A DNA stretch of 64,000 nucleotides from the NCBI GenBank assembly GCA_023898465.1, contig CP060223.1:544001-608000 (forward strand), read 5' to 3'. This stretch comes from Candidatus Nomurabacteria bacterium (lineage in GTDB: Bacteria > Patescibacteriota > Patescibacteriia > HK-STAS-PATE-3). The notes under the pieces were generated by a model. It made no database searches. It worked only from the letters and a program-made list of their open reading frames with translations, and was not told the origin of the DNA. Shown here piece by piece: positions 32,361 through 33,471 of this stretch (the stretch's first letter is position 1; every line of letters begins with the position of its first letter). Made by a program: the position numbers and the translations under genes.

Positions 32361-32804
32361 TTAGCTCCGTTTCATAAGAATAAAAATGCCGAGAAAAATA
32401 AACGTCAAAGGCCAAATACTATGCCACTGCAACCAGGTAAAGGAAAAGAGTTGCCGACTCAACAATACTACACCAAACACCACTACAATGACCCCGAGAA
32501 AATTTTGCAACTGATTTGCCTGTCCAGCGTTTTGTACCGCATCAACCTTTTCTTGAATTTCGTTTCCCACCTGTTGCGCGCGCTCACTTAGTGTTGTAGC
32601 AGCGTGCGTTGCGCCTTCTAGTGGTATAAGCAGCCAAAGCACAACATAAATAAGCACGCCCGCCCCATCAAAGATGGTAAGCAAGAGAAAGACGATACGA
32701 AAAATAACTGGGTCAATGCCAAAGTAGTGTCCTAATCCACCGCAGACGCCTGCCAGCATCCGATGAGTCCGTGATCGTACTAATAGTCGCGTTGAATTAG
32801 ACAT
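32361..32804 (-). CDS. PspC-domain protein (phage-shock protein C family).
   Basis: LVRSRTHRMLAGVCGGLGHYFGIDPVIFRIVFLLLTIFDGAGVLIYVVLWLLIP is a canonical PspC domain. Confidence 0.75.
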   Translation of the reverse strand: MSNSTRLLVRSRTHRMLAGVCGGLGHYFGIDPVIFRIVFLLLTIFDGAGVLIYVVLWLLIPLEGATHAATTLSERAQQVGNEIQEKVDAVQNAGQANQLQNFLGVIVVVFGVVLLSRQLFSFTWLQWHSIWPLTFIFLGIFILMKRS

Positions 32805-32877: not shown

Positions 32878-33071
32878 TTGACAAAGATTTTAGCAAGTCT
32901 TAATGTCTCTATGTTGTCACAAGTACAACAGGCTCCCTGCGGTGCTCCGCGGGTACAATACACAAGAGATCAATCAGATTTGCGAAGTCGCCCTGCGGGG
33001 TGAATTCACCTGCAAAAGCAGGCTCTCTCGTGTGTTGGCCCAACGTGTATTGCGTGGGGGCCTTTTTCTTT
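32878..33071 (+). ncRNA. Candidate small RNA: TTGACA-N17-TAATGT promoter, about 150-nt GC-rich body, intrinsic terminator GGCCCAACG...CGTGGGGGCC plus TTTTTCTTT.
   Basis: Promoter at 32878-32906 and terminator at 33037-33071, read directly. The only ORF here (32903..33247) is implausible. It lies between the pspC and mscL genes on the opposite strand. Confidence 0.3.
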
Positions 33072-33471
33072 ACTCAAGTTGTGAAGTACAACTTGGACAA
33101 CGAGTTGCCTGTAGAGGAATTTCTGAAATGCAAAAGCGGCAAGACTTCGTGCTTACTTCTACTTCTTTTGGCTTTTGTAATTTGCTTAACAAGCGAATCA
33201 TAAAGAAAATGACTGCCGCAATAATCAAGAAGTCAATAGCCGCTTGAATAAACATCCCGTAAGTCAAATATACTGGCTCAGCTTCTGTACCGCCAATTTT
33301 TACTTGTAGACCAGAAAAATCTATCCCTCCGCTAATCAAACCAATCACCGGCATAATAATATCAGCGACTAAAGAGCTGACAATCTTACCAAAAGCAGCA
33401 CCAATGATGACCGCAACTGCCAGGTCCATCACGTTGCCGCGCATAATGAAGGCCTTAAAATCCTTTAACAT
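33070..33471 (-). CDS. mscL: Large-conductance mechanosensitive channel MscL with a C-terminal CxxC...CxxC zinc-ribbon-like extension.
   Basis: MLKDFKAFIMRGNVMDLAVAVIIGAAFGKIVSSLVADIIMPVIG is canonical MscL. C-terminal CRFCISEIPLQATRCPSC. Confidence 0.85.
   Translation of the reverse strand: MLKDFKAFIMRGNVMDLAVAVIIGAAFGKIVSSLVADIIMPVIGLISGGIDFSGLQVKIGGTEAEPVYLTYGMFIQAAIDFLIIAAVIFFMIRLLSKLQKPKEVEVSTKSCRFCISEIPLQATRCPSCTSQLE

What the first reader, a model, noticed from the sequence alone, without database searches (positions are those of the whole stretch)
32878..33071. Promoter-to-terminator sRNA candidate between pspC and mscL
TTGACA-N17-TAATGT (32878-32906), about 150 nt of GC-rich sequence with paired segments (CCCTGCGG/CCGCGGG; GCCCTGCGGGG), and a strong intrinsic terminator overlapping the mscL stop. 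It is transcribed opposite to both neighbours and is non-coding in all frames. It sits within an envelope-stress locus (LiaF-like, PspC, MscL), so an envelope-stress sRNA is plausible.
Basis: seen in the sequence. Interest (0 to 1): 0.5.

Follow-up and report, generated by a model that had tools for sequence, protein, structure and literature searches.

The report
Divergent 6S RNA gene of Patescibacteria
The flagged stretch is a real small-RNA gene with its own promoter and terminator, and it is most likely this candidate-phylum bacterium's divergent version of 6S RNA, the well-known RNA that binds and regulates RNA polymerase, not an envelope-stress RNA.

Summary
Window 32878-33071 (+) has TTGACA-N17-TAATGT, about 140 nt of non-coding sequence and a G+C-rich helix followed by TTTTTCTTT that ends at the mscL stop codon.

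The RNA folds as a closed rod (z = -6.4), comparable to E. coli 6S RNA (z = -5.2). Its parts are a 35-bp closing arm, a 14-nt unpaired 5' bubble strand, a short apical hairpin, and a 16-nt 3' bubble strand that starts ACCUG and forms a 5-bp hairpin.

I found four homologues in other Patescibacteria contigs. Each lies 0-4 kb downstream of the same DUF2207 gene on the opposite strand, with one sigma-70-like promoter and a U tract. Across four of them 93% of cells pair and 33 pairs carry compensatory changes.

Rfam's 6S model matches one homologue end to end (30.2 bits, E = 7e-5, below the gathering score). Two others carry GGG...CCCACCUG, the most conserved stretch of that model's consensus. The window copy reads GAA...AUUCACCUG, as E. 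coli 6S does.

Rfam does not detect the window copy itself, and the apical arm is unusually short. Only three of the five copies sit beside pspC, so the envelope-stress reading is not supported.

Verdict: a new, divergent member of a known kind.

The parts
32878..32883 (+). -35 hexamer TTGACA of the RNA gene
   Evidence: Read directly. A TTGNNN-N16/17-TANNNT promoter-like site is the only one upstream of each of the five homologues.
32901..32906 (+). -10 hexamer TAATGT (17-nt spacer)
   Evidence: It matches TATAAT at 3 of 6 positions, so the scanner did not list it. The arrangement is conserved in position in the homologues.
32913..32929 (+). Predicted 5' leader. The transcription start is inferred about 7 nt after the -10 and has not been mapped. 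Leader length varies among homologues: the gap from the -10 hexamer to the closing helix is 11-67 nt.
   Evidence: Inference from the promoter position. It contains the small hairpin GUUGU...ACAAC.
32930..32969 (+). 5' strand of the closing arm (about 35 bp with small bulges). It corresponds to the closing stem, or 'downstream duplex', of 6S RNA.
   Evidence: MFE folds. Pairing is kept through compensatory changes in the homologues.
32970..32983 (+). 5' strand of the central bubble, UCAAUCAGAUUUGC (14 nt, essentially unpaired). UCAA is shared with homologues A, B and D. This is the expected site of product-RNA initiation if the RNA is 6S.
   Evidence: The 5' bubble strands are 14-17 nt in all homologues and 17 nt in E. 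coli 6S.
32984..33007 (+). Apical stem-loop GAAGUCGCCC-UGCG-GGGUGAAUUC (about 10 bp). It is the variable domain of the family and is much shorter than in canonical 6S RNA.
   Evidence: The closing pairs GAA:UUC align with GGG:CCC (A, B) and GAG:CUC (D). E. coli has GAAUGUG:CACAUUC.
33008..33023 (+). 3' strand of the central bubble, ACCUGCAAAAGCAGGC. It contains the hairpin CCUGC-AAAA-GCAGG at 33009-33022.
   Evidence: ACCU(U)G directly after the apical stem is shared with E. coli 6S nt 131-136 and with the Rfam 6S consensus CCCACCUgg. The hairpin covaries.
33024..33063 (+). 3' strand of the closing arm. The segment GGCCC (33039-33043) can alternatively pair with GGGCC (33058-33062) to form a local terminator hairpin.
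   Evidence: All homologues have an internal segment that can also pair with the terminal G-rich strand (sequences).
33063..33071 (+). U tract TTTTTCTTT, the intrinsic termination site. It overlaps the mscL stop codon by 2 nt. The opposite strand has no U tract after the hairpin, so termination is one-directional.
   Evidence: A U tract directly follows the closing helix in all five homologues.

Best explanation
Window 32878-33071 (+) is the gene for a divergent 6S RNA (ssrS-type) of a Candidatus Nomurabacteria (Patescibacteria/CPR) bacterium.

Shown here:
- It is a stand-alone, sigma-70-type transcription unit.
- Its roughly 140-nt product folds into a rod closed by pairing of its 5' and 3' ends.
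- The rod has a large central bubble (14 nt on the 5' side, 16 nt on the 3' side), a short apical stem-loop, and a small hairpin in the 3' bubble strand.
- This fold is kept by compensatory mutations in related genomes.

Inferred from what is established for 6S RNA:
- The bubble mimics an open promoter, so the RNA occupies the active-site cleft of the housekeeping RNA polymerase holoenzyme and damps transcription when nutrients are scarce.
- On recovery, the polymerase uses the 5' bubble strand and the adjoining closing-arm strand as a template for a short product RNA. If synthesis starts opposite U32970, that product would read 5'-AUCUCUUGUGUAUUG.
- Product synthesis unzips the arm and releases the enzyme.

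The closing helix sits directly before the U tract, so it also serves as the intrinsic terminator. The position next to pspC/mscL is a matter of gene order, not of function.
For: 1. Rod fold. z = -6.4 for the window copy, -6.6 for B, -4.3 for A and -9.2 for D, against -5.2 for E. coli 6S folded the same way.

2. Same layout as 6S RNA. The layout is closing arm, unpaired 5' bubble strand of 14-17 nt, apical stem, 3' bubble strand of 16-17 nt with a 5-6 bp hairpin, then closing arm. This is what is described for canonical 6S RNA and for B. subtilis 6S-1, where the 3' bubble hairpin pre-forms (PMC8414754, PMC8876501).

3. Covariation.
- Hand alignment of three sequences: 92% of cells paired, 17 pairs changed on both sides, 0 of 500 shuffles as good, slid controls 27-52%.
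- Model-fitted alignment of four sequences: 93% paired, 33 such pairs.
- RNAalifold's own consensus gives the same architecture, with 32 of 43 pairs compensated.

4. Direct family evidence. Rfam RF00013 (6S) matches homologue D (L048 5693-5552) over the full model 1-187 on the predicted strand, at 30.2 bits and E = 7e-5.

5. Signature motif.
- The Rfam 6S consensus reads GGG...gagggcaCCCACCUgg at the junction of apical stem and 3' bubble.
- A and B read GGG...AACCCACCUGA.
- The window copy reads GAA...GAAUUCACCUG, and E. coli 6S reads GAAUGUG...CACAUUCACCUUG, nt 124-136.
- D shares the 11-mer AUACCACAAGA with the end of the E. coli 5' bubble strand, and both bubble strands are 17 nt.

6. Orthology of the five copies. 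All lie 0-4 kb downstream of the DUF2207 gene in the conserved Mur ligase / asparaginase / DUF2207 block, on the opposite strand. Each has one TTGNNN-N16/17-TANNNT site and a U tract.

7. Non-coding. No ORF is conserved among the loci.

8. Orientation. The G-U excess, the promoter and the U tract all indicate the + strand.
Against: - Rfam's 6S models do not report the window copy, A or B even at E <= 10. Even D is below the gathering score (30.2 against 46.4).
- The link from the window copy to D rests on synteny, architecture and motifs. The full-length model R1, built from W, A and B, scores D at 24-25 bits, but a plain terminator at window 51805-51856 scores 24.5 bits with the same model. 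Much of D's score may therefore come from the closing helix and U tail.
- The terminator-free core model scores D's core at only 12.6 bits, E = 0.38, and it does not recover its own member A either.
- Neither of my models matches E. coli ssrS.
- The apical arm is only about 10 bp, so there is no obvious counterpart of the -35-like contact of E. coli 6S RNA.
- When the putative product-RNA template is blocked in silico, a bubble-collapse helix forms in B and a new helix forms in A, but nothing new forms in the window copy.
- The putative product RNAs lack the conserved GG described for known pRNAs (PMC8414754).
- Only five distinct sequences were available, and the first alignment was fitted by hand.
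Confidence: 0.75

Rival explanations
1. It is an envelope-stress trans-acting sRNA, transcribed divergently from pspC-liaF and co-regulated with it, which base-pairs with envelope-related mRNAs.
For: - In three of five genomes the RNA is divergent from pspC-liaF (window; L043; L050).
- The two promoters are back to back. The pspC-side promoter-like site is at 32849-32822 and the RNA -35 is at 32878.
Against: - D and F lie next to an unrelated 356-357-aa gene with no similarity to PspC or LiaF.
- In L049, the contig with the LiaF-like protein closest to the window's, pspC has no such RNA upstream.
- Selection acts on long helices and on a 6S-type bubble, not on an accessible seed.
- mscL is a neighbour only in the window.
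Confidence: 0.06
2. It is a clade-specific rod-shaped RNA that only resembles 6S RNA, for example a scaffold or sponge for another protein. It would not bind the RNA polymerase holoenzyme or template product RNAs.
For: - There is no Rfam 6S hit for W, A or B.
- The apical arm in W and D is very short.
- No refolding helix is predicted in W.
- The putative product RNAs are pyrimidine-rich and lack the usual GG (for the norm).
Against: - The full-length RF00013 match to the syntenic homologue D, E = 7e-5.
- The exact CCCACCU motif at the correct structural junction in A and B, and AUUCACCU as in E. coli in W.
- Bubble sizes and the 3' bubble hairpin match 6S RNAs.
- B. subtilis 6S-1 truncated to the bubble plus two short arms still completes the 6S cycle in vitro (PMC8876501).
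Confidence: 0.15
3. It is not an RNA gene. The palindromic DNA is only a terminator or spacer between convergent and divergent genes, or a chance structure.
For: - The hairpin with a T tract abuts the end of mscL.
- Reverse complements of the five sequences also fold well, with z from -4.0 to -5.2.
Against: - A promoter is conserved at the right distance in five genomes.
- The T tract is present on one strand only.
- G-U pairs are enriched on the + strand, 8 against 2 in W.
- About 140-215 nt are conserved, with 33 compensated pairs and conserved unpaired motifs. This is far more than a terminator needs.
Confidence: 0.03

Closest known systems
6S RNA (SsrS), Rfam RF00013; reference E. coli ssrS (NC_000913.3 3055983-3056165)
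   Same: - It is a stand-alone abundant-type sRNA gene whose 5' and 3' ends pair into a long closing arm.
- It has a large central bubble. The 5' strand is 14-17 nt here and 17 nt in E. coli. The 3' strand is 16-17 nt here and about 14 nt in E. coli.
- It has an apical stem.
- ACCU(U)G lies immediately after the apical stem. The window's AUUCACCU is identical to E. coli nt 127-134.
- The fold z-score is of similar size.
- One homologue (D) is matched end to end by RF00013.
   Different: - W, A and B get no RF00013 match at E <= 10.
- The apical arm is about 24 nt in W and 36 nt in D, against about 72 nt in E. coli, so the -35-like contact region is missing.
- The strand flanking the bubble on the closing side is purine-rich (AGAGA, GGUAAGG) instead of the consensus CuGAgCC.
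- The closing helix is itself followed by the terminator U tract. E. coli 6S is instead cut out of a longer transcript (that last point is from my own knowledge).
- It is not linked to the 5-formyltetrahydrofolate cyclo-ligase gene.
[quoted passage not shown]
   Same: - A short hairpin that already forms in the 3' bubble strand of the free RNA. Here it is 5-6 bp in W, A, D and F.
- A possible 'central bubble collapse helix' in homologue B (AAGAGCA:UGCUCUU).
- Truncated 6S-1 with only the bubble and two short arms still binds, templates product RNA and is released in vitro. This makes the short apical arm of W and D compatible with function.
   Different: - There is no detectable sequence similarity beyond the family motif.
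- A collapse helix is not predicted for W.
- Nothing here has been tested experimentally.
Ms1 RNA of Actinobacteria (PMC9130861)
   Same: It is a 6S-like rod with a central bubble that escaped homology searches and was found through synteny, as here.
   Different: - Ms1 is about 300 nt.
- It has extra hairpins at both ends.
- It binds core polymerase, not the holoenzyme.
- It is restricted to Actinobacteria.
- The RNAs here are 140-215 nt and carry the 6S motif.
Bacterial SRP RNA (4.5S) and tmRNA
   Same: - They are rod-like or highly structured housekeeping RNAs of similar size.
- GAUUUGCGAA in the window is identical to a 10-mer in E. coli tmRNA. I recalled this from memory, and it was only a lead.
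   Different: - There is no GNAR tetraloop or helix-8 motif, and no SRP model hit at E <= 10.
- ARAGORN finds no tmRNA in the window or in the homologous loci.
- There is no tRNA-like end or tag reading frame.

Membership tests
6S RNA (SsrS, RF00013) | Stand-alone non-coding transcript of roughly 150-200 nt | tested here: met
   - Promoter and U tract delimit about 140-160 nt in the window.
- The homologues' rods measure 149-213 nt.
- No ORF is conserved.
- The transcript itself has not been observed.
6S RNA (SsrS, RF00013) | Extended hairpin made of a closing stem, a large central bubble and an apical stem, kept in evolution | tested here: met
   - Independent MFE folds of five sequences give this layout.
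- 93% of cells are paired and 33 pairs are compensated, against 36-53% paired in slid controls.
- RNAalifold gives the same layout.
- The apical stem is unusually short in W and D.
6S RNA (SsrS, RF00013) | Conserved pairs flanking the bubble and the consensus GGG...CCC|ACCU at the junction of apical stem and 3' bubble | tested here: met
   - A and B carry GGG...CCCACCUGA, an exact match to the consensus shown.
- W carries GAA...UUC|ACCUG, as E. coli carries GAA...UUC|ACCUUG.
- D carries GAG...CUC|ACCUCG.
6S RNA (SsrS, RF00013) | Score at or above the Rfam gathering threshold (46.4 bits) | tested here: not met
   - There is no RF00013 match for W, A or B at E <= 10.
- Homologue D scores 30.2 bits with E = 7e-5, which is significant but below the gathering score.
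6S RNA (SsrS, RF00013) | Hairpin or refolding potential in the bubble that drives release after product-RNA synthesis | tested here: inconclusive
   - A pre-formed 3' bubble hairpin is present in W, A, D and F.
- Blocking the putative template in silico reproduces the known 9-bp hairpin in E. coli.
- The same block gives a 7-bp collapse helix in B and a new helix in A, but nothing new in W.
6S RNA (SsrS, RF00013) | Binds the housekeeping sigma factor holoenzyme and templates short product RNAs | not testable with these tools
   This needs co-purification or gel-shift experiments and small-RNA sequencing.
   - Linkage to pspC is present in 3 of 5 homologues only.
- It is absent in L049, L046 and L048.
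- Co-regulation is not testable here.
SRP RNA (4.5S) | Helix 8 with a GNAR tetraloop and conserved symmetric and asymmetric loops | tested here: not met
   No SRP family hit at E <= 10 in four searches, and the motif is absent on inspection.
tmRNA | tRNA-like acceptor and T arm, and a tag reading frame | tested here: not met
   ARAGORN finds none in the window or the homologous loci.

The most novel reading that the evidence does not exclude
Patescibacteria carry a minimal 6S-type RNA that lacks the -35-mimicking apical arm and whose closing stem doubles as the transcription terminator. This would mean a mode of RNA polymerase recognition, or a partner protein, different from the one worked out for E. 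coli. Alternatively, the RNA has been recruited to control the divergent psp/lia envelope-stress operon in the lineages where the two are adjacent.
Probability: 0.15. Interest if true: 0.55.

Novelty: new member of a known kind. Interest (0 to 1): 0.35.

Why it matters
6S RNA is one of the few global RNA regulators shared across bacteria. I found no open paper linking it to the candidate phyla radiation, and the standard Rfam model misses the window copy.

A recognisable but strongly divergent 6S RNA in roughly 1-Mb, regulator-poor, probably symbiotic bacteria suggests two things. Control of RNA polymerase by an open-promoter mimic is kept even in very reduced genomes. And annotation pipelines are under-calling this gene in that large part of the bacterial tree.

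The naturally short apical arm offers a natural test of how much of 6S RNA is needed for function. So far that question has been addressed only with engineered truncations.

For the scan itself, the practical result is that this candidate is explained by a known class and is not a new envelope-stress regulator.

Tried and rejected
1. Genome-collection scan with the DUF2207 alignment. The single scan was wasted.

2. Metagenome scan with the RNA pattern TCAA..GGGATTTG..AACCCACCTG.
- It gave 20 stretches, all chance matches or two unrelated repeated elements.
- None had the closing arm plus terminator.
- None had an Rfam or tmRNA call at the matched elements; the gathering scan returned only three tRNA genes elsewhere in L052 and L059.

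3. The tmRNA lead, from the GAUUUGCGAA similarity. Rejected.

4. The SRP RNA idea. Rejected: no motif and no model hit.

5. MAFFT alignments of the RNAs were not consistent with the structure. I used hand alignments with N in place of gaps. This lowers model quality.

6. The core covariance model without the terminator (R2) was too weak. It does not recover its own member A, gives D only 12.6 bits, and does not match E. coli 6S.

8. No further homologue was found in L040, L045, L049, L051 or L072.

9. The local-hairpin reading of CCCTGCGG/CCGCGGG was rejected in favour of the long-range arm, because homologue B has no such hairpin while the arm pairing covaries.

F, for example, could not be tested against Rfam on its own; the one Rfam search that included L046 whole, at E <= 1, gave no 6S hit.

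Full report
**What is there**

The window comes from a Candidatus Nomurabacteria (Patescibacteria/CPR) metagenome-assembled genome with a 1.08-Mb contig. The finding sits in the 265-nt spacer between two minus-strand genes. These are pspC (32361-32804; Pfam PspC) and mscL (33070-33471; Pfam MscL).

- TTGACA at 32878-32883, a 17-nt spacer, and TAATGT at 32901-32906.
- The G+C-rich paired segments.
- GGGGGCC followed by TTTTTCTTT at 33063-33071, overlapping the mscL stop codon by 2 nt.

The simple scanners reported neither the promoter nor the terminator. The -10 hexamer matches the consensus at only 3 of 6 positions. The helix before the U tract is either a long-range helix or a local hairpin with a 16-nt loop.

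**Fold**

The + strand from 32930 to 33068 folds into a single closed rod with an MFE of -68.4 kcal/mol. Dinucleotide shuffles give -44.7 +/- 3.7, so z = -6.4. The reverse complement reaches only z = -4.0 and has 2 G-U pairs instead of 8.

The layout is as follows:

| Element | Coordinates | Sequence or size |
|---|---|---|
| Closing arm | 32930-32969 with 33024-33063 | about 35 bp with small bulges |
| 5' bubble strand | 32970-32983 | UCAAUCAGAUUUGC, unpaired |
| Apical hairpin | 32984-33007 | about 10 bp |
| 3' bubble strand | 33008-33023 | ACCUGCAAAAGCAGGC, with the hairpin CCUGC-AAAA-GCAGG |

E. coli 6S RNA, fetched as a control and folded the same way, gives z = -5.2 and the same kind of layout.

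**Known families**

- Rfam finds nothing in the whole window at gathering thresholds.
- Around the locus it finds only chance terminator-like matches at E <= 10.
- ARAGORN finds no tRNA or tmRNA.

**Homologues**

Near-identical contigs (L001, L002) carry the spacer without a single change. I therefore followed the neighbouring proteins to more distant relatives.

Two homologous RNAs turned up by synteny, divergent from pspC-liaF:
- A = L043 5892-5680 (-), 213 nt.
- B = L050 2431-2240 (-), 192 nt.

Both fold independently into the same closed rod, with z = -4.3 and -6.6. They share with the window copy UCAA in the 5' bubble strand, GAUUUG, and AA(CC/UU)CACCUG.

A covariance model built from the three (R1) then matched two further places:
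- A plain terminator at window 51805-51856, with 24.5 bits.
- A 149-nt stretch in a 285-nt spacer of L048. This is D = L048 5693-5545 (-), with 23.8-25.4 bits.

The syntenic spacer of L046/L047 holds a fifth copy, F = L046 5489-5335 (-). My models do not score F significantly.

All five copies lie 0-4 kb downstream of the same DUF2207 gene, in the conserved Mur ligase / asparaginase / DUF2207 block, on the opposite strand. Each has exactly one TTGNNN-N16/17-TANNNT site upstream and a U tract directly after the closing helix.

No ORF is conserved across the loci.

**Covariation**

| Alignment | Cells paired | Pairs changed on both sides | Controls |
|---|---|---|---|
| Hand-made structural alignment of W, A, B | 92% | 17 | 0 of 500 column shuffles as good; slid controls 27-52% paired |
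| Model-fitted alignment of W, A, B, D | 93% | 33 | slid controls 36-53% paired |

In the four-sequence alignment, the base of the apical stem (GGG:CCC, GAA:UUC, GAG:CUC) and the 3' bubble hairpin also covary. RNAalifold's own prediction on that alignment gives the same architecture, with 32 of 43 pairs compensated.

Two caveats apply. There are only four or five sequences, and the alignments were fitted to the structure. However, each sequence predicts the rod on its own.

**Identity**

D is a textbook 6S RNA shape:
- dG = -75.1 kcal/mol and z = -9.2, with the MFE structure taking 19% of the ensemble.
- A 35-bp closing arm.
- A 17-nt unpaired 5' bubble strand, UUCUAUCAAUACCACAA.
- An apical stem of 8 + 4 bp.
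- A 3' bubble strand, ACCUCGAAUUCGAGGU, folded as a hairpin.

Rfam's 6S model RF00013 matches D over the whole model (1-187) on the predicted strand, with 30.2 bits and E = 7e-5. This is below the curated gathering score of 46.4 but statistically significant.

The consensus printed with that match shows that the most conserved stretch of 6S RNA is GGG...gagggcaCCC|ACCUgg, at the junction of the apical stem and the 3' bubble strand. The copies compare as follows:
- A and B carry exactly GGG...AACCC|ACCUGA.
- The window copy has GAA...GAAUUC|ACCUGC.
- E. coli 6S has GAAUGUG...CACAUUC|A131CCUUG136. The 8-mer AUUCACCU is identical and lies at the same structural place.
- D shares the 11-mer AUACCACAAGA with the end of the E. 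coli 5' bubble strand.

Published descriptions of canonical 6S RNA fit the RNAs here (PMC4064990, PMC8414754, PMC8876501). They describe:
- A closing stem with small bulges.
- A large 5' central bulge.
- An apical stem.
- A hairpin opposite the bulge that pre-forms in B. subtilis 6S-1.
- G-C pairs flanking the bubble.

**What speaks against it**

- RF00013 does not report W, A or B even at E <= 10.
- The statistical bridge from W/A/B to D is weak once the terminator-like closing helix is discounted. The core model R2 gives D's core 12.6 bits (E = 0.38), in register but not significant. It fails on its own member A and on E. coli ssrS.
- The apical arm of W (24 nt) and D (36 nt) is much shorter than in E. 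coli (about 72 nt). A counterpart of the -35-like contact is therefore missing. Truncated B. subtilis 6S-1 that retains only the bubble and two short arms still completes the 6S cycle in vitro, with roughly ten-fold lower affinity (PMC8876501).
- Blocking the putative product-RNA template in silico reproduces the known 9-bp release hairpin of E. coli. It yields a 7-bp bubble-collapse helix in B and a new helix in A, but nothing new in the window copy.

**The envelope-stress idea**

- Three of the five copies are divergent from pspC-liaF.
- D and F lie beside an unrelated 356-357-aa gene.
- In L049, the contig with the LiaF-like protein closest to the window's, pspC has an 87-nt upstream spacer followed by a transporter-like gene, with no RNA.
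- mscL is the convergent neighbour only in the window.

The conserved feature of the neighbourhood is the DUF2207 block. The link to the psp/lia genes is therefore best read as inherited gene order.

**Mechanism**

Shown here: a conserved, independently transcribed, non-coding rod with a 6S-type central bubble.

Inferred from the established behaviour of 6S RNA:
1. The RNA mimics an open promoter.
2. It sequesters the RpoD holoenzyme.
3. It is released when the enzyme transcribes a short product RNA from the 5' bubble strand into the closing arm.

One family-specific feature is consistent across all five copies. The 3' strand of the closing helix is followed at once by the U tract. An internal segment (GGCCC at 33039-33043 in the window) can also pair with that strand. 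A local terminator hairpin can therefore form during transcription, and the RNA can then settle into the long-range closing helix. This last step is inference.

**Verdict**

I put about 0.75 on a divergent 6S RNA. This is a new, poorly detectable member of a known family in a phylum for which I found no open literature on 6S RNA.

Interest is moderate to low. The candidate is explained by a known class. The naturally minimal apical arm and the blind spot of the Rfam model are of some specialist value.

Noticed in passing
window 33070-33471 (-): The MscL protein ends in a CxxC...CxxC tail (CRFCISEIPLQATRCPSCTSQLE). This looks like a small zinc ribbon fused to the channel, which is unusual for MscL.
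   Followed up: no
L054 3885-4150 (+); also L055, L057, L062, L065, L067: A nearly identical element of about 250 nt in six marine/TARA contigs matched my RNA pattern (GGGAUUUGGGAAAGCCC...AAACCCACCUGG). It looks structured, but it has no Rfam or tmRNA call and lacks the 6S-like layout. It is probably unrelated to the finding.
   Followed up: partly
L060 2180-2296 (-); also L069, L071: A second repeated element hit by the same pattern occurs in three contigs. It has a hairpin CACCUGUGUUUUUGGG...CCAGGUG and U-rich flanks. Its nature is unknown.
   Followed up: no
L046 2184-3000 (also L047; L048 2225-3000): About 800 nt without a called gene lie just upstream of the DUF2207 gene in three related contigs. 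The stretch ends in a strong hairpin, GCGCAAACCCGCCCC..GGGGCGGGUUUGCGC. There is only a weak Rfam match (rnk leader, E = 0.35).
   Followed up: no
window 51805-51856 (-): A strong intrinsic terminator (GGCCCCGUCAC...GUGACGGGGCCUUUUUCUUU) scored 24.5 bits with my full-length RNA model. This shows how much of that model's score comes from the closing helix plus U tail.
   Followed up: yes
L049 1-340: In L049, the contig with the LiaF-like protein closest to the window's (57% identity), a divergent transporter-like gene replaces the RNA upstream of pspC. The 6S-like gene must lie elsewhere in that genome or be absent. The contig is only 3 kb.
   Followed up: partly
L045 3918-4361: A 444-nt spacer in another DUF2207-linked contig contains several G+C-rich hairpins but no match to the RNA models.
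   Followed up: partly
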